From IMG/VR virus record IMGVR_UViG_2657244943_000008, positions 1 to 10,588 of that record: a DNA stretch of 10,588 bases. One strand, written 5' to 3'. The notes below the pieces were generated by a model. It was not told the DNA's origin, did not search any database, and worked only from the letters and a program-made list of their open reading frames with translations. Below, one piece after another: positions 1,823 through 10,588 of the stretch. The position numbers and the translations under genes were made by a program. The stretch's first letter is position 1; each line of letters begins with the position of its first letter. This stretch comes from a virus. Lineage: Duplodnaviria; Heunggongvirae; Uroviricota; Caudoviricetes.

Positions 1823-1855
1823 CAGAAACGACAAAACCCGCTCGATGGCGGGTTT
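1823..1855 (-). terminator. Intrinsic-terminator-like hairpin oriented on the minus strand (possible tR'-like late-operon terminator)
   Basis: Plus strand shows AAACCCG-ctcgatgg-CGGGTTT at 1834-1855. On the minus strand the stem is followed by TTTTGTCGTTTCT. It lies ~150 bp upstream of the holin start, at the boundary between ~50% GC phage DNA and the AT-rich cassette. Confidence 0.45.
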
Positions 1856-1900: not shown

Positions 1901-1929
1901 TTGCGTACGCGTTAGTGTTTTGATAGAAT
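1901..1929 (+). promoter_or_regulatory. Sigma70-like promoter for the two-gene cassette (TTGCGT, 17 bp spacer, TG-n-TAGAAT extended -10)
   Basis: -35 TTGCGT at 1901-1906, 17-bp spacer, TG at 1921-1922, -10 TAGAAT at 1924-1929. This would give a ~37-nt leader to the ATG at 1973, which has GGGA 6 nt upstream. Motif match only, no experimental support. Confidence 0.45.
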
Positions 1930-1972
1930 TTTCAGCCACATAAAAATTCATTCTTATAATTCGGGATATATA

Positions 1973-3148
1973 ATGGATATAACTTGTTTAGAATGTGGCA
2001 ATGTTCTTGACGACCCAACTGTAGCTTGCGATAAATGCGGTGCCACGCCTCATGTTGTAGTGCTGGGCAAACAATCGTACTTTCCTATTGGTGCTGTAAC
2101 AGCAAATCTTGAAAAAAATGATTCAAGAGCATTTGATTATCGATTAGGTGAAGTTTGGGATCTAAAAAATGAAGTCACATCTGAATTCATAACCAGAATT
2201 GAGAAAAAATTTAGCCGAAAAAACAAATTTCATAACTTCCTAGACTCAGATCACAACCCTTCATCCATTCCTACGATCCTAAAAAAATACATTAATAAAA
2301 ATAATGAATTCATTGATTTATCTAGAGCTATAATAGAGAAGCTTAAACATAATGCTAATAACGAATCGAGAGTTGCCCAACTTCAGGGGGGGAGCGTTGT
2401 TTTCATCCACTATAAGTCTACCGAACCAGAGGATTTGGGGAAACTTCTAATCGTAATGGTTGATAAACAAAGCGCCTATGACTTTGATTCGGATAAGTTG
2501 ACCCCAACAAGATTAAATCCAATTAATACCGATGCCTTACGGCAGGCTGCGATGTTCGATTTAACTTTATTCGAAGCCAGTTATCCAGAAAACAAGGGTG
2601 ACTCATATGTACATTTCTTGCAAGGTAAATCTAAAAGCGATTTTTTCAAAGACTCATTAGGTTGCCGACATGATTCGGACAATAAAAGAAGCATTCAGCA
2701 ATTATTCAGTGCTATAGATATTTTTGCTAGTAAAAACTCACTCGGTCGTGTACTGCGTGATACTATTGACAATGAAGTTAAATCCTTACTGGAAAAAAAA
2801 TCAAAAGATAAACACGGAAATAAGTCCGTTAAGATAGAGGATATTTCAAAAATAATTGACTCATGCCTGACTGATTCACACAAATGTAAGGGAACGTTTG
2901 TCGATTTTGTTAATCTTAATGGTTTCCAGATTGACCCTCAATTTGAACCAACTCCTAAAGCAGCTGAAAGCGCGCTTACAATTGAAGTGGCAGATAACGA
3001 CAATAATTTTAAGTTGAAAATAATGCGTGGAGCTATTGGAGACGAAAAGTCAAATAAGCCTGTAATTCTCACTGACAACAAATGCGAAATTGTGATAAAA
3101 TTGAGTCAGGCAAATTATGATGAACTCAAAAGATATAGAGACAGCTAA
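1973..3148 (+). CDS. Zinc-ribbon plus NdpA/YejK-like nucleoid-associated-domain protein (391 aa); cassette gene 1
   Basis: N-terminal CxxC…CxxC (CLECGN…CDKCG). The central and C-terminal region aligns by eye to E. coli YejK/NdpA as I recall it: GGSVVFIHYKS…LLIVMVDKQ versus GGIVLFCHYRY…LLVAVLNN, and YVHFLQGKSKSDFFKDSLG versus [22 protein letters not shown]. About 30% GC against ~50% in flanking phage genes. Confidence 0.6.
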   Translation: MDITCLECGNVLDDPTVACDKCGATPHVVVLGKQSYFPIGAVTANLEKNDSRAFDYRLGEVWDLKNEVTSEFITRIEKKFSRKNKFHNFLDSDHNPSSIPTILKKYINKNNEFIDLSRAIIEKLKHNANNESRVAQLQGGSVVFIHYKSTEPEDLGKLLIVMVDKQSAYDFDSDKLTPTRLNPINTDALRQAAMFDLTLFEASYPENKGDSYVHFLQGKSKSDFFKDSLGCRHDSDNKRSIQQLFSAIDIFASKNSLGRVLRDTIDNEVKSLLEKKSKDKHGNKSVKIEDISKIIDSCLTDSHKCKGTFVDFVNLNGFQIDPQFEPTPKAAESALTIEVADNDNNFKLKIMRGAIGDEKSNKPVILTDNKCEIVIKLSQANYDELKRYRDS

Positions 3149-3150
3149 TA

Positions 3151-4365
3151 ATGACAATTGCTGATGACTTATCAAGATTAGCGCAGATTATTAACGGAGC
3201 CTCAAGCAGAGTTGAGGGCTACTACACTGTCATAACTCTTGAAGAAAGCATTGTTATTGTAAATAGTTCTGAAATAATTAGACTGTTACAATCTATAGGT
3301 TATAAAAAGGCAACAACCTGCATCGAAAATAATGAAATTTGGCTAGATCGCCAAGCTTCATCTTGGGATGATGCTATAATTTATGAGAATGTTGAGTCTT
3401 TTTGGTCTAGAGTAAACACCCAAAACGCTCTTCCGAAAAATTATATCATCGGAACGCCGTTAATACTCCCTACTTCTAAGAATGAAAGCATCGAAAAAAT
3501 CCATATTTTCTTTATGTGGAAAGATATCCTTTCATTAATTTCTGATCATCATAACAGTGACTGCTCTGTCTTATTTTTCACCAATGAAGACAAAAGTTAT
3601 ACAGTCGAACTCACGCATTTTTTACAATATAGCGAGATTAATCGCTTATCGAACTCGTCTCTTAAATATGAAATTATAAAGGAGCTTCTCGACACAATAA
3701 AAATCAATGATTTACACAAAAGCGAGCGCAAGCTCGTTATACGCTCAGCCATAAACGAAGTATTTAAAGCAAATGGTACGTTCAATTTCTTTGACTTGCT
3801 TAACTCTACTGAACTCGTCAGGAAAAAATATGATGAACTATATGAGATTTACACAAAGAGGTTTTCTGTAAATAAAATTCTTAACGAACTCGATGAGAAA
3901 AATCTTGAGTTCACGAGTAAAATTAACGAATTCATATCATCTAATCAGACAAAAGCATTGACTATTCCCGGTGCATTAATAGCAGCTGGTGGCTTAGTGA
4001 AGGCTAATGAAACAACCGAAGCAATATTGATTATCGCAGGACTTTGGATGATAAAAAAAGTCAATTACATTTCTATTGAGATATTCAATGAAACATTCGA
4101 CAACTTACGTTCTCGAGTGGAGTCCGCTTTCGATAAGTATTTAAAGTTTGAAGAAAATAAAGAAATCAAAGATAATGCAGATAGTATTAAGAGTAGCATT
4201 ACAGGTTTGATTGATAAAGCTAAAAAAAGGATGAGAACTGTTAAATATCTCGCATCAGCCATGTTTTATGGAGGCCTTATTTACGTTGGATATAAACAGT
4301 TCCCAGTCTTTTTTGAAAAATCGGCAGTAAATCTATTTTATTTTTTATGCCATACTATAAGCTAA
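3151..4365 (+). CDS. Hypothetical protein with C-terminal hydrophobic (membrane-anchoring) segments (404 aa); cassette gene 2
   Basis: ATG at 3151 is 2 nt after the gene-1 TAA (TAATAATG), indicating translational coupling. The N-terminal ~260 aa are soluble with no motif I recognise. The C-terminal part has hydrophobic stretches ALTIPGALIAAGGLV, AILIIAGLWMI and VKYLASAMFYGGLIYVGY. Its 3' end overlaps the Q gene convergently by 21 nt. AT-rich. Confidence 0.6.
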   Translation: MTIADDLSRLAQIINGASSRVEGYYTVITLEESIVIVNSSEIIRLLQSIGYKKATTCIENNEIWLDRQASSWDDAIIYENVESFWSRVNTQNALPKNYIIGTPLILPTSKNESIEKIHIFFMWKDILSLISDHHNSDCSVLFFTNEDKSYTVELTHFLQYSEINRLSNSSLKYEIIKELLDTIKINDLHKSERKLVIRSAINEVFKANGTFNFFDLLNSTELVRKKYDELYEIYTKRFSVNKILNELDEKNLEFTSKINEFISSNQTKALTIPGALIAAGGLVKANETTEAILIIAGLWMIKKVNYISIEIFNETFDNLRSRVESAFDKYLKFEENKEIKDNADSIKSSITGLIDKAKKRMRTVKYLASAMFYGGLIYVGYKQFPVFFEKSAVNLFYFLCHTIS

Positions 4366-4701
4366 CATTGCTAAACAGCCATCAACAAACCCCATTGCAG
4401 TTTGCAGTTCCTTCCTAATTGTGCCATCAGAGCATTTTCTCTTCTTCGCAATAGTGCGTAATGAGATACCGATAACAAAGTGGGCGATGATGAGCTCATA
4501 TTCATCTGGTTTATACCTTCTCAACCGAGCCACACAACTGTCTATCATGATGCCTTCGTCATCATCACACTGAATCCGTGACTTTTTGCCATGAGGTAAA
4601 AGTCCCTTGAAACCAGCCGCTATCGGCTGCCAGTCCACTCCGCTATTGTCTGAAGCAGCCCAAGCTCCCCAACGATCCATTACTTCATACATATCACGCA
4701 T
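4345..4701 (-). CDS. Q: Late-gene antiterminator Q, short QuuD-like family (118 aa from the ATG at 4701)
   Basis: Translation [35 protein letters not shown]…CDDD… resembles DLP12 QuuD as I recall it ([35 protein letters not shown]…CDDD…). The track ORF begins at a TTG at 4716; the ATG at 4701 with GGAGAAAG upstream is the more likely start. Confidence 0.8.
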   Translation of the reverse strand: [118 protein letters not shown]

Positions 4702-4887
4702 CAACTTTCTCCACAAAATCAGGCCAGCACACCAATTGCCAGCGCACGATCGATAAGACCAGGGACAATTACTGACTCTTGCCGGTGAGCCTGACGGAAA
4801 ACTCCGCGCAGCAGGTCATTAATATCGTTCTTAATTAACTGATTATTTATCTCATCACTGAATATCTTTATATAGTGAGGACTTATT

Positions 4888-5712
4888 ATGTCTCAGAACT
4901 TAGACGCAACCGCAATTAATCAAATCCATGCCCTTATTTCTGCTCAGGGTGTTAATGAAATTATCAGTAAGATTGGTGCCGACGCAGTGGCATTACCTGA
5001 AAATTTCCGCATTCATGATCTGGAAAAATTTAATTTAAATCGCTTCCGTTTCCGTGGCGCGCTTTCCACTGCCTGCATCGATGACTTTATCCGTTATTCT
5101 AAAGATCTTGCAGATGAAGGCACCCGCTGCTTTATCGATGCCGATAATATGCGTGCCGTCAGTGTTCTTAACCTGGGTACTATTGATGAACCAGGTCACG
5201 CAGATAATACCGCCACTCTCAAACTGAAAAAGACAGCACCGTTCTCTGCACTGTTGTCTGTTAACGGCGAGCGTAACTCCCAGAAGTCACTGGCAGAATG
5301 GATTGAAGACTGGGCCGACTACCTTGTGGGCTTTGATGCTAATGGTGACGCCATTCAGGCAACAAAAGCGGCTGCGGCAGTCCGTAAAATCACAATTGAA
5401 GCGAACCAGACTGCTGATTTTGAAGACAATGACTTCAGCGGCAAACGCTCCCTGATGGAGTCTGTCGAAGCGAAGACCAAAGACATTATGCCAGTGGCAT
5501 TTGAATTTAAATGCGTTCCGTTTGAAGGTCTGAAAGAACGTTCTTTTAAATTACGCCTCAGCATTATCACTGGCGATCGTCCTGTACTTGTTCTGCGCAT
5601 TATTCAGCTGGAGGCTGTGCAGGAAGAAATGGCTAACGAATTTCGCGATCTGCTTGTTGAGAAATTCAAAGACAGCAAAGTAGAAACCTTTATTGGTACT
5701 TTCACCGCCTGA
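4888..5712 (+). CDS. yfdQ: DUF2303-family prophage protein, YfdQ-like (274 aa)
   Basis: Length and N-terminus ([14 protein letters not shown]…) match my recollection of E. coli CPS-53 YfdQ. It is followed by a YfdR-like HD-domain gene, as in CPS-53. GAGG RBS 8 nt upstream. Function unknown. Confidence 0.6.
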
Positions 5713-5724
5713 TTTGATTACTGC

Positions 5725-5747
5725 AAATGCCCCTGCGGGGGCATTTA
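5725..5747 (+). terminator. Hairpin AAATGCCCC-tgc-GGGGCATTT followed by AT, between the yfdQ-like and yfdR-like genes
   Basis: 9-bp perfect inverted repeat with a 3-nt loop, 13 nt after the yfdQ-like stop. The U-tract is short (ATTTAT), so it may be a partial terminator or attenuator. Confidence 0.4.
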
Positions 5748-5840
5748 TGGAAACGTAATTAACTCAATAATCGCCGGATGGTGAGGGCTTCCTTTTACCA
5801 GAATTCAGTGCGGTGCAGCGCAAATAACGTGGAGAACAAA

Positions 5841-6377
5841 ATGTCATTTATTAAAACTTTTTCTGGGAAGCATTTTTATTATGACAGGATAAATAAAGAC
5901 GACATCGTTATTAACGATATCGCGGTTTCCCTTTCAAATATCTGTCGCTTTGCAGGACATCTTTCACACTTCTACAGCGTCGCCCAACATGCGGTGCTTT
6001 GCAGCCAGTTGGTGCCGCAGGAATTTGCTTTTGAAGCGTTAATGCATGATGCAACAGAAGCATATTGCCAGGATATCCCCGCACCACTGAAACAACTTCT
6101 TCCTGACTATAAACGGATGGAAGAAAAAATAGACGCCGTAATCCGTGAGAAATACGGGTTACCTCCTGTTATGAGCACGCCTGTGAAATATGCCGATCTC
6201 ATTATGTTGGCAACCGAGCGTCGCGATCTCGGGCTTGATGATGGCTCTTTCTGGCCTGTGCTGGAAGGTATCCCGGCAACAGATATGTTCAAAGTTATTC
6301 CACTGGCACCGGGCCATGCCTACGGGATGTTTTTGGCACGCTTTAAAGAGTTACATACGATACATAAACAATCCTGA
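5841..6377 (+). CDS. yfdR: HD-domain phosphohydrolase, YfdR-like 5'-deoxynucleotidase (178 aa from the ATG at 5841)
   Basis: H…HD motif (HLSHFYSVAQHAVL…ALMHDATEAY) typical of the HD superfamily. The ATG at 5841 has GGAG 8 nt upstream and gives 178 aa, matching the YfdR length I recall. The track ORF starts earlier at 5778 without an RBS. Confidence 0.7.
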   Translation: MSFIKTFSGKHFYYDRINKDDIVINDIAVSLSNICRFAGHLSHFYSVAQHAVLCSQLVPQEFAFEALMHDATEAYCQDIPAPLKQLLPDYKRMEEKIDAVIREKYGLPPVMSTPVKYADLIMLATERRDLGLDDGSFWPVLEGIPATDMFKVIPLAPGHAYGMFLARFKELHTIHKQS

Positions 6378-6432
6378 CAGTGAAATTAACCAGTGAAATA
6401 GTTTTGTAGCAAAAGAAATGAGGTTATCAAAA

Positions 6433-6678
6433 ATGCTTCAAATGCTGACACTTGAAGAATGGGCTTCTGAAAAATACAGAAGTAATCCTCCAAGTGTGTC
6501 CACATTGCGTCGTTATGCTAAGCAGAATTTATTTTGTCCACCGGCCATGAAACAAGGCCGGTTATGGCGAGTGCGTGAGGACGCCGAGTTAGTTGGAGAG
6601 CTGGTAACACCAGTAATTAAGAAAAATGACTCATTACTTTTGCAACGGATTTTGAGTGATGGCAGCCAGACCGCGTAA
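6433..6678 (+). CDS. xis: Excisionase, lambda Xis-like (81 aa from the ATG at 6433)
   Basis: MLQMLTLEEWASEKYRSNPPSVSTLRRYAKQNLFCPPAMKQGRLWRV parallels lambda Xis (…LTLQEW…RSLETVRRW…FPPPVKDGREY…). GAGG lies 9 nt upstream of the ATG at 6433; the alternative start at 6418 has no RBS. Overlaps the int start by 20 nt as in lambda. Confidence 0.75.
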   Translation: MLQMLTLEEWASEKYRSNPPSVSTLRRYAKQNLFCPPAMKQGRLWRVREDAELVGELVTPVIKKNDSLLLQRILSDGSQTA

Positions 6679-7786
6679 AAATAATGTTTCGGTCCCTAAC
6701 TTATATCCGCTTTATAGTAGGAAAGTAAATAAAGTCTATTGGCGGTATAAGCATCCAGTAACAGGGAAATTTCATGCGCTAGGAACGAACGAAACCGAAG
6801 CCATCGCTATTGCCACTGAAGCCAATACGCGACTGGCTGAACAAAGAACTCGGCAGATTCTGGCCATCAGTGACAGGATAGCAACCAGCAAAGGGAAAGC
6901 AATCACAACGTCAACCTGGTTAGATCGCTACCAAGCGATCCAGGATGACCGACTGAAAAGTGGTGATATAAGACTCAACACTTATAAGCAGAAAGCCAAA
7001 CCAGTATCCTTACTTAGGGAACGAGTAGGAATGAAGTTGATCTCAGCCGTTGATGTCAGAGATATAGCACAATTGCTTGACGAGTATATCGCTGCCGGGC
7101 AGCCGAGAATGGCGCAAGTCGTAAGGTCTGTATTGATCGATGTATTTAAGGAAGCACAGCATTATGGCGAAGTTCCGCCAGGGTATAACCCTGCTCTTGC
7201 GACGAAGCAACCCAGACGGAAAATCACCCGTCAACGCCTCAGCCTCGAAGAATGGAAAAAAATCTTCGATATCGCAGATGCCAGTCATCGTTACATGGGA
7301 AATGCCATGCTCCTAGCATTGGTCACTGGACAGCGTTTGGGGGACATATCTAAAATGAAATTCAGCGATATTTGGGATGACCATCTACATGTCGAACAGG
7401 AAAAGACTGGAAGCAAAATCGCAATTCCTCTTTCTCTTCGCCTCAATACGATTAACTGGAGTTTACGCGATATAATAGCCCGCTGCCGTGACTATGCAGT
7501 CAGTCCATACCTAGTGCATTTTTTCCGTTCAACTTCACAAGCAGAACGTGGGGCACAGGTTAAATCCAATACATTGACGATGAACTTTAGCAAAGCGCGA
7601 GACTTGGCCGGAATTGATTGGGGTGATGGAACTCCAGCAACTTTCCATGAACAAAGATCTTTATCTGAGCGCCTTTATAGGGAACAAGGGATTGATACGC
7701 AAAAACTACTCGGACATAAATCTCCTAATCAGACAGCTAGATATCATGATGATCGTGGAAAAGATTGGGTAACTCTAGCAATTTGA
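6659..7786 (+). CDS. int: Tyrosine integrase, lambda Int family (375 aa from the ATG at 6659)
   Basis: Full-length similarity to lambda Int as I recall it, including the catalytic signature: R in LALVTGQRLGD, H-x-x-R in FHEQRSLSERLY, and H plus Y in LLGHKSPNQTARYHDDRG. The track start at 6656 is a GTG; the adjacent ATG at 6659 is more likely. Confidence 0.92.
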   Translation: MAARPRKNNVSVPNLYPLYSRKVNKVYWRYKHPVTGKFHALGTNETEAIAIATEANTRLAEQRTRQILAISDRIATSKGKAITTSTWLDRYQAIQDDRLKSGDIRLNTYKQKAKPVSLLRERVGMKLISAVDVRDIAQLLDEYIAAGQPRMAQVVRSVLIDVFKEAQHYGEVPPGYNPALATKQPRRKITRQRLSLEEWKKIFDIADASHRYMGNAMLLALVTGQRLGDISKMKFSDIWDDHLHVEQEKTGSKIAIPLSLRLNTINWSLRDIIARCRDYAVSPYLVHFFRSTSQAERGAQVKSNTLTMNFSKARDLAGIDWGDGTPATFHEQRSLSERLYREQGIDTQKLLGHKSPNQTARYHDDRGKDWVTLAI

Positions 7787-7871
7787 TTTTTATATTTTTA
7801 TTAAAAATTAAAAAATTCAGACGCATCATATCAAAAATTTATTAGTAAAATAGATAACTAATATTTTTCTT

Positions 7872-7888
7872 GGGGGGAGGAGCCCCCC
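7872..7888. other. GGGGGG-aggag-CCCCCC palindrome embedded in an AT-rich region between the int stop and the convergent membrane-protein gene
   Basis: 6-bp G/C stem with a 5-nt loop; a T-tract lies upstream on the plus strand and no clean U-tract follows on either strand. It could be a weak bidirectional terminator or part of the prophage attachment region, which is expected within ~100-150 bp of the int stop. Confidence 0.3.
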
Positions 7889-7920
7889 GCACATTATATT
7901 GAAGATTAATAACTGATATA

Positions 7921-8886
7921 TCATTTCTTAAATTTAAGAATTTCTTTTAAGGCTTCTACTATATTTTTATCCCCATCCATGCTAATTTTCTCCTTCTCAA
8001 GAGAAACCGTAGTCTGCCCTTTTTCAAGAACAAAATTACGTTCTGTAGCCATGAGATTTTTAATAACCTCACCCATTAAGTCTTCGTTTCTAATGCCCTT
8101 AAGAAACTTTATCGCCAAAACTTTGGAATCGATATTGGTAAGCTCATTTTGAAAATACTTGACCTCATCAAAACCATTTTTGTACAACTTCAAGAAGAAA
8201 TAAGCAAATAGTTCAACGACAATTACAAATGATAATTTGGGGGCCATGTGAAGTATATATTCAAGCTTATCATTTGTGTTAATAGCATTTGTAACTGAAT
8301 ATCCAAGGTAAAGTATCCCACCAAAAGCAATAAATGCACCTAAAACCAGATTAACCCCACCACGTCTATTTAATCTATTTATTTCATTTTCTAAACGATA
8401 TACAATATCATTATAGTGTTTACTAATTTCTATTTGATTTCTAAACGAATTTATATCATTTTTCAAACTTAAATCTGCAGCCAAGAGAGTATTGCCTACA
8501 ATCTTTTTTTTAGCATTATCGATCAACTCTTGCCTTTCTTTTGATGTGAGTAAAACACCATTTAAATCTTTCGAATCATTTGTAACTAGTTGATTAAACT
8601 CTTGCTTTAAGGAGTCTAATTCTGACTTTAACTCTTCATATGAGTTAACATTCTTGTTTTTACTTTCACCTATTCCTTTATTAACATAATTTAATAAAAA
8701 TGCTGCCATAAAAGTTAAAATCAGAGTTGCAATAAAGAAACTATTTTCATCTTGAAGTATTTTAGCAACAGTGGAAAAATAACTTACGAGAAGAGGCTGA
8801 GCATTATAAAGCCCCATTCCTAACAAAACTGCAATTGCCGTACCTAAAACGAACCTTACTTCTTGTCTTTTTAGTAACCTATTCAT
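7921..8886 (-). CDS. Four-TM membrane protein with central coiled-coil and C-terminal soluble region (321 aa); candidate membrane effector
   Basis: Hydrophobic segments VRFVLGTAIAVLLGMGLY, FFIATLILTFMAAFLLNYV, VNLVLGAFIAFGGILYLGY and LSFVIVVELFAYFFLKLY. The linker between TM2 and TM3 (ELKSELDSLKQEFNQL…RLENEINRLNRR) is heptad-like. About 28% GC. Weak GGTG RBS. No confident family assignment. Confidence 0.6.
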   Translation of the reverse strand: MNRLLKRQEVRFVLGTAIAVLLGMGLYNAQPLLVSYFSTVAKILQDENSFFIATLILTFMAAFLLNYVNKGIGESKNKNVNSYEELKSELDSLKQEFNQLVTNDSKDLNGVLLTSKERQELIDNAKKKIVGNTLLAADLSLKNDINSFRNQIEISKHYNDIVYRLENEINRLNRRGGVNLVLGAFIAFGGILYLGYSVTNAINTNDKLEYILHMAPKLSFVIVVELFAYFFLKLYKNGFDEVKYFQNELTNIDSKVLAIKFLKGIRNEDLMGEVIKNLMATERNFVLEKGQTTVSLEKEKISMDGDKNIVEALKEILKFKK

Positions 8887-9448: not shown

Positions 9449-10588
9449 CTAAAATACAACTTGCTTCCTTAGTAAATCACCTCTAGCATTTGAGTAATAT
9501 TCAGTCGAATTGCCAGTAACTTCCCGGAGTACTTCTGTTACAAGGTTATTTAGTATTCCCGTAAGTTTAAGAAACTCTCCATATGAATTAGGTTTCTCAA
9601 ATATCTTTCTGGTACCGTTCGGCACATCGAGCTGCATTGCAGCATCATGATCCTGGGCTAAGTGATTTAGCCAGCGGTGAGTCTCAACAAGTACAGCAAG
9701 TTCATAGTATGTACTATGACGGAGATTATTAGCATCTGCATGGTACATTAGTGAAGCAATATCATAGCTGCTTAGATCAATACTCGAACCTTCGTCTCCA
9801 CTGTCTGCTTTCAGGGTTTTGAGCATGCGAATTGATTTTCTTAATCCACCATTGCATTGATCGCATTTGTCTTTGATACGTTGCATGTGGAGGAACGGTT
9901 CATTGTAGATACGCTCTCGTTTGTTTTTATCAATTATGGTAACTCCACGATGTTCTTCTTTTTTTGTGAGTTGGTACTCTTTCGTATCCCACCATATGCC
10001 TGGCACTACATCAACTTCTCTTTGAAGACTCCCCCCCGTTATTCTCAAGGACTTGGCGTTATTATCGTCAACCTGAGCAGCAGGAAATGTCATTTTTAGA
10101 GCATCTCGAGCTGCACGCCTAAGTTCAATGATGACGTCTCGGCCATCTTTCTCAGCTGCACTATAGCTGCCAACTCCACCGCTATCATACATAAGCATCT
10201 GAGTATCAATAATTAAAAGATCTACATCACTGAAACCTTTGATATGGATATCTAGGGGAACAGAACCTTGTACCCGAAAATCTAGGTTTAGGTCTAATTT
10301 CTTAGTCAGCTGATTTTCAATACGATACGCGGTTTCGAATGAGATCTCTGTATAGCGGGGGTCAACTGGTTGCATCGCACCAATGACATACCGGATAGCT
10401 GAATCGTCTCTTCCTCTAGACTCCCAACTTTCATTAAGCTCAAGAGCATCTTCAAGCAATGCATATTTTTCAAGGCCATCATATCTTTGATTACTCATTG
10501 ATTCTGTGGCTACTCGCAACTGATCATATGTCCCTTTACGACGTGACTTCATGCGTTCAATACGCGAACTATATGATGAATTAGACAT
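9449..10588 (-). CDS. Pol-beta-superfamily nucleotidyltransferase with cGAS/DncV-like (CD-NTase/SMODS-like) active-site motifs (at least 379 aa; start at the window edge)
   Basis: GS…D-x-D motif (RVQGSVPLDIHIKGFSDVDLLII) and a downstream third acidic motif REVDVVPG, resembling the [DE]hDhhP of OAS/cGAS/DncV-type enzymes. About 42-48% GC. The ATG coincides with the last base of the window, so the true N-terminus may lie further upstream. Confidence 0.55.
   Translation of the reverse strand: MSNSSYSSRIERMKSRRKGTYDQLRVATESMSNQRYDGLEKYALLEDALELNESWESRGRDDSAIRYVIGAMQPVDPRYTEISFETAYRIENQLTKKLDLNLDFRVQGSVPLDIHIKGFSDVDLLIIDTQMLMYDSGGVGSYSAAEKDGRDVIIELRRAARDALKMTFPAAQVDDNNAKSLRITGGSLQREVDVVPGIWWDTKEYQLTKKEEHRGVTIIDKNKRERIYNEPFLHMQRIKDKCDQCNGGLRKSIRMLKTLKADSGDEGSSIDLSSYDIASLMYHADANNLRHSTYYELAVLVETHRWLNHLAQDHDAAMQLDVPNGTRKIFEKPNSYGEFLKLTGILNNLVTEVLREVTGNSTEYYSNARGDLLRKQVVF

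What the first reader, a model, noticed from the sequence alone, without database searches (positions are those of the whole stretch)
3151..4365. Membrane-anchored partner protein with no recognisable catalytic motif, translationally coupled to the NdpA-like gene
About 260 aa of soluble N-terminal sequence without motifs I recognise, followed by hydrophobic segments at roughly residues 270-300 and 365-390. This architecture resembles membrane-disrupting abortive-infection effectors, but that is a guess. The last ~7 codons overlap the Q stop convergently, so the C-terminal tail may be partly a junction artefact.
Basis: inference. Interest (0 to 1): 0.6.

Follow-up and report, generated by a model that had tools for sequence, protein, structure and literature searches.

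The report
Known anti-phage membrane protein DS-1B

Summary
The ORF 3151-4365 (+) is real. It encodes 404 aa, starts 2 nt after the stop of an NA37/YejK-like gene (1973-3148), and overlaps the convergent Q antiterminator gene by 21 nt.

It is already known. It scores above the curated cut-off of NCBIfam NF053869 "DS1_2_antiphage", and its partner does the same for NF053868. It is 402/404 identical to WP_000150292.1, and the partner is identical to WP_000355468.1. Together these are DS-1 of DeWeirdt, Mahoney & Laub (Science 2026), which reduced Bas1 plating about 10^7.6-fold.

Its architecture also fits type II PANGU (Li et al., bioRxiv 2026): a nucleoid protein sensor (Pag2A) plus a transmembrane effector (Pag2B). 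No PANGU sequences were available, so identity with that system is untested.

What I add:
- The family is large, with 769 clusters at 50% identity.
- Every locus with readable upstream sequence (17 of 17; an 18th is cut by a contig end) has an NA37 gene directly upstream.
- The topology appears to be N-in, three TM segments, C-out.
- Conservation peaks on the helix next to the membrane plus TM1, with an invariant proline.
- The N-terminal domain has no solved-structure relative.
- The junction-derived tail belongs to Q, not to this gene.

Membrane disruption itself has not been shown. The kind is already known; interest is low to moderate.

The parts
3151..4365 (+). DS-1B (Pag2B-like), the finding: 404 aa. 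It has an N-terminal cytoplasmic alpha/beta domain (aa 1 to ~210), long helices (220-268, 288-331, 337-383), and three hydrophobic segments (269-283, 290-305, 366-383).
   Evidence: NCBIfam NF053869: 375 bits against a cut-off of 315. PHROG 5023, E 1e-157. 402/404 identical to WP_000150292.1. AF2 model pLDDT 86.2.
1973..3148 (+). DS-1A (Pag2A-like): 391 aa. An N-terminal CxxC...CxxC zinc ribbon (C5, C8, C19, C22) is followed by an NA37/YejK nucleoid-associated domain. This is the presumed sensor.
   Evidence: Pfam PF04245, E 1e-23. NCBIfam NF053868: 451 bits against a cut-off of 330. Identical to WP_000355468.1. PDB 9be2 YejK, E 1e-9. The zinc ribbon is kept in 10 of 12 partner genes.
3146..3153 (+). 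Gene junction TAA-TA-ATG: a 2-nt spacer between gene 1 and gene 2.
   Evidence: Read directly from the sequence.
1920..1947 (+). Candidate sigma-70 promoter of the cassette (TTGATA-16-AAAAAT), 25 nt upstream of the gene 1 ATG. This is a weak consensus match only.
   Evidence: 9 of 12 positions match, and the number of such sites in the region is no higher than in shuffled sequence.
4345..4365 (.). 21-nt convergent overlap between the last 7 codons of DS-1B (stop included) and the last 6 codons plus stop of Q. The recombination junction with other Q alleles lies at about 4366.
1973..4365 (+). The whole low-GC cassette (~34-37% GC against ~45-55% in the flanks), inserted between the holin S gene and Q of an e14-type lambdoid prophage, on the strand opposite the late genes.
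   Evidence: The same placement is seen in a second prophage context, and the cassette lies next to Q in Pseudescherichia vulneris.

Best explanation
The gene encodes DS-1B, the membrane-embedded partner of a two-gene anti-phage system carried by a lambdoid prophage as an accessory gene cassette.

The likely mechanism has four steps:
1. The upstream zinc-ribbon/YejK-like protein (DS-1A) sits on the nucleoid in healthy cells.
2. Phages that destroy or remodel host DNA release it.
3. Free DS-1A binds the acidic cytoplasmic N-terminal domain of DS-1B.
4. That binding is transmitted through a three-helix stalk to a highly conserved helix next to the membrane and a proline-containing TM1. This switches the three-TM module into a state that compromises the inner membrane (ion leak or pore) and stops growth of the infected cell.

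What is shown:
- Identity with DS-1, and DS-1's anti-phage activity (published).
- The obligate NA37 pairing, the three-TM architecture, and the conservation pattern (this work).

What is reported only for a type II PANGU system of unverified identity:
- Both genes are required.
- Neither gene is toxic alone.
- The nucleoid protein binds the N-terminal domain with a KD of 19 nM.
- The nucleoid protein leaves the nucleoid on T4 infection.

What is inferred: that DS-1 is a type II PANGU system, the direction of signalling, and membrane permeabilisation as the killing act.
For: Identity:
- Both NCBIfam equivalog models are passed.
- DS-1B is 402/404 identical and DS-1A 391/391 identical to the cloned DS-1 proteins.
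- Reported -log10 EOP values for DS-1: Bas1 7.6, Bas26 2.7, Bas3 1.7, T3 1.7, T5 1.0, T7 0.9.

Pairing:
- An NA37 gene lies directly upstream, on the same strand, in every locus with readable upstream sequence, down to ~15-20% identity.

Membrane module:
- 94 of 102 members have three hydrophobic segments at aligned positions.
- K+R counts fit N-in/C-out topology: 2.0 before TM1, 1.6 and 3.25 in the cytoplasmic loop, against 1.1 in the TM1-TM2 loop and 0.8 in the tail.
- Some members carry C-terminal bacterial SH3 fusions.
- Conservation peaks at aa 231-280, and P273 is invariant in 102/102. This argues that the TM region is functional rather than a passive anchor.

N-terminal domain:
- It is acidic across the family, with net charge -1 to -19 in 35 members (-8 here) and pI about 5. 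This fits the 'DNA-mimic' domain described for Pag2B.

Context:
- Low GC, prophage and defence-island neighbours such as BstA_C, AbiEii, AAA_21 and integrases.
- From general knowledge, the phages DS-1 restricts (T1-like, T5-like, T7-like) all degrade host DNA.
Against: - No membrane-damage assay exists for DS-1B or Pag2B. The PANGU authors state that how Pag2A engages and activates Pag2B is undetermined.
- The reported host ranges differ. DS-1 has no T4 row in Table S7 and protects against T1-like and T5-like phages. PANGU-Ecu protects against T4, and T1 and T5 were resistant to it.
- In this E. coli protein TM2 and TM3 are only marginally hydrophobic (1.51 and 1.25, the weakest of 102 members).
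- The N-terminal domain's net charge of -8 over 218 aa is only moderately acidic.
Confidence: 0.6

Rival explanations
1. Kiwa-like logic with the roles reversed. The membrane protein DS-1B is the sensor, detecting phage DNA entry or envelope perturbation at the inner membrane. It releases or licenses the DNA-binding protein DS-1A, which is the true effector and coats or blocks phage DNA.
For: The architecture is a TM protein paired with a DNA-binding protein. DS-1A has an extra zinc ribbon that is conserved in 10 of 12 partners. The conserved TM region could equally serve sensing. The PANGU text contains one sentence suggesting that PagB might act as the sensor licensing PagA. DS-1 gives complete protection against Bas1, at 10^7.6.
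Against: YejK-like proteins pair with many unrelated toxic partners such as toxSAS enzymes and lysozymes. This is the modular pattern expected of a common sensor with swappable effectors. Pag2A-GFP leaves the nucleoid upon infection, and cultures arrest at high MOI. PADLOC KwaA matches only 1 of 102 members, at E 0.005. Gene 1 matches only NA37 in Pfam and has no KwaB/DUF4868 domain.
Confidence: 0.2
2. DS-1B is a membrane-tethered enzyme whose N-terminal domain is catalytic, for example a nuclease related to the LAGLIDADG/WhiA fold. The TM segments only localise it.
Confidence: 0.05
3. The protein belongs to the prophage's own lysis or superinfection machinery (holin, antiholin or exclusion protein), as suggested by its position between Q and the holin gene.
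For: It lies in the Q-S interval next to the holin, lysozyme and Rz genes, and it is a membrane protein.
Against: It is on the opposite strand from the late operon and has foreign GC content. It always travels with an NA37 gene. It is also found outside prophage late regions, in integrase and defence islands of Serratia, Pseudoteredinibacter and others. It protects when cloned alone in MG1655.
Confidence: 0.03

Closest known systems
DS-1 (DS-1A/DS-1B) of DeWeirdt, Mahoney & Laub, 'DefensePredictor', Science 2026 (PMC13092281); NCBIfam NF053868/NF053869
   Same: It is the same system. Gene 1 is identical to WP_000355468.1, and gene 2 is 402/404 identical to WP_000150292.1. Both pass the equivalog cut-offs. 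The published TM annotation (269-404) agrees with mine.
   Different: Two substitutions, T29S and S131A, in DS-1B. The paper gives no mechanism, no mutants and no domain for DS-1B.
Type II PANGU (Pag2A-Pag2B), Li et al., bioRxiv 10.64898/2026.04.06.716658
   Same: A two-gene operon with a YejK-like nucleoid protein followed by a protein with an acidic N-terminal domain and a C-terminal TM domain. It is found in E. coli, is anti-phage, and spreads across phyla by horizontal transfer.
   Different: Sequence identity could not be checked because no sequences were held. The reported spectrum differs: T4-sensitive with T1/T5 resistant, against DS-1's Bas1, Bas26, T3, T5 and T7. The zinc ribbon of the nucleoid protein is not mentioned there.
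Type I PANGU (Pag1A + GRel toxSAS Pag1B)
   Same: The same sensor family (YejK-like) and the same proposed logic: a DNA-mimicking domain on the effector captures the released nucleoid protein.
   Different: The effector is a soluble pppGpp-synthesising enzyme, not a membrane protein. DS-1B has no toxSAS domain.
Kiwa (KwaA membrane protein + KwaB DNA-binding protein)
   Same: A membrane protein paired with a DNA-binding protein in a two-gene defence system (general knowledge).
   Different: There is no sequence relationship. KwaA matches 1 of 102 members at E 0.005, and gene 1 carries NA37, not DUF4868. The roles are probably reversed.
SLATT 2-TM effectors and other TM effectors of CBASS/Thoeris-type abortive infection
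   Same: The concept is shared: a small helical TM module serves as the terminal effector of an abortive-infection pathway.
   Different: Not a member. SLATT_fungal matches 1 of 102 members at E 0.003, below the cut-off. This family has three TM segments plus a ~270-aa cytoplasmic domain.

Membership tests
DS-1B / NCBIfam NF053869 DS1_2_antiphage (equivalog) | Whole-protein score above the curated cut-off | tested here: met
   375.3 bits against a cut-off of 315, covering aa 46-378.
DS-1B / NCBIfam NF053869 DS1_2_antiphage (equivalog) | Adjacent partner is DS-1A (NF053868, a nucleoid-associated anti-phage protein) | tested here: met
   451.4 bits against a cut-off of 330. There is a 2-nt gap and both genes are on the same strand.
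DS-1B / NCBIfam NF053869 DS1_2_antiphage (equivalog) | Near-identity to the experimentally validated proteins (WP_000150292.1 and WP_000355468.1) | tested here: met
   99.5% (402/404) to the copy annotated WP_000150292.1, and 100% to WP_000355468.1.
DS-1B / NCBIfam NF053869 DS1_2_antiphage (equivalog) | Confers phage resistance | not testable with these tools
   Reported for the 99.5%-identical clone: Bas1 -log10 EOP 7.6, among others.
Type II PANGU (Pag2A-Pag2B) | Two-gene operon with a YejK-like nucleoid protein next to the effector (<40 bp apart) | tested here: met
   PF04245, E 1e-23 with a 2-nt gap. The pairing is conserved in every locus with readable upstream sequence.
Type II PANGU (Pag2A-Pag2B) | Effector has a C-terminal transmembrane domain | tested here: met
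   Three hydrophobic segments at aligned positions in 94 of 102 members. They are weaker in this protein. DeepTMHMM region 269-404 from the DS-1 paper.
Type II PANGU (Pag2A-Pag2B) | N-terminal acidic 'DMK' domain that mimics DNA | tested here: inconclusive
   Net charge -8 and pI 5.2 over aa 1-218; family range -1 to -19.
Type II PANGU (Pag2A-Pag2B) | Sequence homology to Pag2B of PANGU-Ecu (Cluster 2) | not testable with these tools
   No sequences or accession numbers are held for the preprint.
Type II PANGU (Pag2A-Pag2B) | High-affinity binding of the nucleoid protein to the N-terminal domain; nucleoid protein relocates on infection | not testable with these tools
   Reported for PANGU-Ecu only: KD 19 nM and GFP relocalisation.
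SLATT 2-TM effector domain | Match to a SLATT profile | tested here: not met
   1 of 102 members, E 0.003, 18 bits against a cut-off of 26.5. No match for the window protein.
Kiwa (KwaA/KwaB) | Match to the KwaA model, with a DUF4868 partner | tested here: not met
   KwaA matches 1 of 102 members at E 0.005. The partner matches only NA37. PADLOC gives no hit for either window protein.
CorA/Mrs2/ZntB channels | Fold match with low rmsd and the GMN signature after TM1 | tested here: not met
ClyA-family alpha-pore-forming toxins (AhlB, SmhB, MakA, ClyA) | Significant structural match | tested here: not met
   Foldseek E 0.8-2.7, probability below 0.1.

The most novel reading that the evidence does not exclude
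DS-1B may represent a new class of membrane effector. In this reading it is an oligomeric channel or pore, built from a proline-kinked TM1 and a strictly conserved helix next to the membrane. It would be gated from the cytoplasm when a released nucleoid protein docks on an N-terminal domain whose fold has no solved relative. The marginal hydrophobicity of TM2 and TM3 in the E. coli clade would then reflect conditional insertion, that is, a soluble-to-membrane switch as in alpha-pore-forming toxins.
Probability: 0.3. Interest if true: 0.6.

Novelty: already known. Interest (0 to 1): 0.27.

Why it matters
The cassette shows that a housekeeping-type nucleoid protein family (YejK/NdpA) has been recruited as an infection sensor, and that prophages carry such systems in the Q-S interval. 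That is already published. The open question is how a DNA-binding sensor switches on a membrane protein. This analysis points experiments at specific sites: the invariant P273, the F238/K242/E246/K257/Q266/K268 helix, and the D187-E192-R193 motif of the N-terminal domain. It also shows that the NA37 pairing holds across a family of several hundred clusters.

Tried and rejected
- Pfam, PADLOC and PDB sequence searches with the protein and with family alignments found no consistent family. The isolated hits (SLATT_fungal 1/102, 8xMP 5/102, KwaA 1/102) were rejected as noise.
- Foldseek against the PDB gave nothing better than E 0.6. The recurring ClyA-family toxins are kept only as an analogy.
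- The afdb50 library was unavailable, so I could not test whether the N-terminal domain resembles the DMK domain of GRel toxSAS proteins.
- BLASTP against the neighbouring 321-aa TM protein (7921-8886) found one 49-residue stretch of 24% identity (E 0.011 for this single comparison) at TM3 of DS-1B, which I judge too weak to indicate homology.
- Rfam found nothing in the window.
- The cassette is absent from the deposited phage genomes at megablast level.
- A literature search for '8xMP' was uninformative.
- PANGU sequences could not be retrieved.

Full report
**1. Observation**

The window carries minus-strand late genes of a lambdoid prophage:
- an Rz-like gene at 528-878;
- a lysozyme gene at 875-1351;
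- holin S at 1355-1681 (PF05106);
- the Q antiterminator at 4345-4716 (PF06530).

Between S and Q, on the opposite strand, lies a two-gene cassette of foreign composition, about 34-37% GC against about 45-55% in the flanks.

Gene 1 (1973-3148, 391 aa) has an N-terminal CxxC...CxxC zinc ribbon and an NA37/YejK domain (PF04245, E 1e-23).

Gene 2 is the finding. It runs from ATG 3151 to TAA 4363-4365 and encodes 404 aa. It begins 2 nt after the gene 1 stop (TAA-TA-ATG), and its last 21 nt overlap the 3' end of Q.

The first ~268 residues are hydrophilic. Hydrophobic stretches lie at about 269-283, 290-305 and 366-383.

**2. What it is**

NCBIfam gives equivalog-level matches for both genes:
- NF053868 'DS1_1_antiphage' for gene 1, at 451 bits against a cut-off of 330;
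- NF053869 'DS1_2_antiphage' for gene 2, at 375 bits against a cut-off of 315.

The names come from DeWeirdt, Mahoney & Laub (Science 2026, PMC13092281). Their supplementary tables list transcription unit D390, renamed DS-1, as WP_000355468.1 plus WP_000150292.1. It is marked defensive and replicated.

Gene 1 of the window is identical to WP_000355468.1. Gene 2 is 402/404 identical to WP_000150292.1 and corresponds to WP_057108764.1.

Their Table S7 has seven rows for D390, as -log10 EOP: Bas1 7.6, Bas26 2.7, Bas3 1.7, T3 1.7, T5 1.0, T7 0.9 and SECphi27 -0.15. All 26 occurrences of 'D390' in that file fall in the part I read, so there is no T4 row.

The paper reports only a YejK domain in gene 1. 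For gene 2 it reports a DeepTMHMM region at 269-404 and no HHpred domain. It offers no mechanism for DS-1.

**3. A second relevant paper**

Li et al. (bioRxiv 10.64898/2026.04.06.716658) define 'PANGU' systems. In these, a YejK-like nucleoid protein senses phage-induced genome degradation, leaves the nucleoid, and activates a partner effector.

Type II PANGU pairs the nucleoid protein (Pag2A) with a TM protein (Pag2B). Pag2B has a C-terminal TM domain and an acidic N-terminal 'DMK' domain described as a DNA mimic.

For an E. coli example they report:
- both genes are required;
- neither is toxic alone;
- growth arrests at high MOI;
- the DMK domain binds Pag2A with a KD of 19 nM;
- Pag2A-GFP leaves the nucleoid on T4 infection.

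They also state that how Pag2A engages and activates Pag2B remains to be determined.

No sequences are held for this preprint, and it does not cite DS-1. I therefore treat 'DS-1 is a type II PANGU system' as very likely on architecture but unproven.

The reported host ranges also differ. PANGU-Ecu acts on T4, and T1 and T5 were resistant to it.

**4. New analysis of the protein family**

*Family size.* A word-indexed search found 69 clusters, mostly from Enterobacterales. A profile search of 1.84 billion representative proteins found 769 clusters at E <= 1e-3 and 355 at E <= 1e-10. Nearly all are about 400 aa and match over the full length.

*Pairing with NA37.* An NA37 gene lies directly upstream, on the same strand, wherever the upstream sequence could be read:
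- in 11 of the 12 species-level genome loci; the 12th is cut by a contig end and keeps only the 3' end of the gene, and one of the 11 looks degraded;
- in Serratia and Pseudoteredinibacter;
- in four distant members of about 15-20% identity.

Gaps range from an 8-nt overlap to 18 nt.

*Neighbours.* These include BstA_C, AbiEii, AAA_21, integrases, recombinases and toxin-antitoxin genes.

*Distribution in E. coli.* In E. coli the cassette is in 106 of 5,426 complete genomes at >=99% identity. In the two copies whose flanks I inspected it lies between holin S and Q, and two copies are broken by IS elements.

**5. Architecture**

The AF2 model has pLDDT 86.2 and pTM 0.63. It shows an alpha/beta N-terminal domain (aa 1 to ~210) followed by helices at 220-268, 271-284, 288-331, 337-383 and 385-403.

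Across 102 divergent members, 94 have three hydrophobic segments (Kyte-Doolittle >= 1.6) at the aligned positions. The window protein is the weakest, at 1.89, 1.51 and 1.25.

Three observations support an N-in, three-TM, C-out topology:
- Basic residues are concentrated before TM1 and in the TM2-TM3 loop, and are depleted in the TM1-TM2 loop and the tail.
- Several members carry a C-terminal bacterial SH3 domain.
- The ~60-residue helical hairpin at 306-364 would lie in the cytoplasm.

Conservation is highest at aa 231-280, the helix next to the membrane plus TM1. P273 is invariant in 102/102. Other strongly conserved residues, out of 102, are F238 (92), K268 (89), K257 (87) and E246 (86).

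The N-terminal domain is less conserved. It keeps a D187-x-H/Q-x-x-E192-R/K193 motif and is acidic throughout the family.

**6. Mechanism**

The best-supported reading is that DS-1A is a nucleoid-bound sensor and DS-1B is a membrane effector. DS-1B would be held inactive until free DS-1A docks on its cytoplasmic N-terminal domain. The signal would pass through the helical stalk to the conserved TM1 module, and the inner membrane would be compromised.

Support comes from four lines:
- the published PANGU data;
- the modular pairing of YejK-like proteins with many unrelated toxic partners;
- the concentration of conservation in the TM module;
- from general knowledge, the DS-1-sensitive phages (T1-like, T5-like, T7-like) all degrade host DNA.

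Membrane damage has not been measured by anyone. I put this reading at about 0.6.

The main rival, at about 0.2, is a Kiwa-like reversal in which the membrane protein senses and the DNA-binding protein acts. A catalytic N-terminal domain (about 0.05) and a prophage lysis role (about 0.03) are poorly supported.

**7. The 'junction artefact'**

Other E. coli Q alleles that lack the cassette align to the window only from about position 4366 onward.

Q proteins share '...DGC(L/I)(A/S)ML' and then diverge: AYSMA here, YH in another strain, and ILE in P. vulneris.

DS-1B's tail NLFYFLCHTIS is retained in 85-90%-identical orthologues from Citrobacter, Klebsiella and Raoultella. Those run three residues longer (SKHC); the window has TAA where the in-frame continuation still reads H-C-stop.

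So the overlap belongs to the cassette, and it is Q's last codons that were remodelled. At family level the tail beyond about aa 385 is not conserved.

**8. Verdict**

The gene is an already published, experimentally validated and database-curated anti-phage component. The remaining interest lies in the unknown effector mechanism.

Noticed in passing
window 7921-8886 (-): A 321-aa ORF of very low GC (28-31%) with three strong hydrophobic segments and coiled-coil-like stretches. It matches PHROG 5157 but nothing in Pfam, PADLOC or NCBIfam. Its protein cluster (WP_057108767.1) is listed by DefensePredictor as a 'putative novel defense gene' (log-odds 10.2), with only a weak AbiZ/DUF6161 resemblance. 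It is an untested defence candidate next to the integrase gene.
   Followed up: partly
window 9449-10588 (-), cut by the window end: A CBASS oligonucleotide cyclase (PADLOC PDLC00772, E 6e-137). In NZ_CP132983 a Cap15-family effector gene lies next to it, overlapping its start, and the pair sits between the e14 integrase and icd. The window therefore holds at least two, possibly three, defence loci.
   Followed up: partly
window 4345-4366: The last ~5 codons of the Q antiterminator (AYSMA) are encoded antisense to the 3' end of DS-1B and differ from other Q alleles. Homology to cassette-free Q genes starts at about 4366. Insertion of the cassette remodelled Q's C-terminus.
   Followed up: yes
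window 1834-1855 (-): A strong terminator-like hairpin (AAACCCGC...GCGGGTTT followed by a T-rich tail) on the late-gene strand, between the cassette and holin S. Its position matches that of a lambdoid tR'. If so, the late promoter and the site where Q acts would lie downstream of the cassette, about 2.4 kb from Q.
   Followed up: no
L001 (NZ_OZ547033) 6074-8023; NZ_CP182203 (hit H12): Some E. coli copies of DS-1 are disrupted by insertion sequences: IS1 in gene 1 in one genome, and an ISKpn26-family IS5 element within the cassette in another.
   Followed up: no
window 1985-2041 (gene 1, aa 5-22): The CxxC...CxxC zinc ribbon at the N-terminus of DS-1A is conserved in 10 of 12 partner genes of closer relatives. 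The shorter (352-365 aa) NA37 partners of distant members may lack it, judging by length only. The PANGU preprint does not mention it.
   Followed up: partly
window 4888-7786: A remnant of an e14-type prophage: YfdQ-like DUF2303 gene (4888-5712), HD-family hydrolase gene (5778-6377), an excisionase-like ORF (6418-6678) and a lambda-type integrase gene (6656-7786). In matching genomes the element is integrated at icd.
   Followed up: partly
window 4018-4299 (DS-1B aa 290-383): Among 102 family members, the E. coli protein has the least hydrophobic TM2 and TM3 (Kyte-Doolittle 1.51 and 1.25, against at least 1.6 at all three segments in 94 of 102 members). The reason is unexplained; one possibility is conditional membrane insertion.
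   Followed up: no
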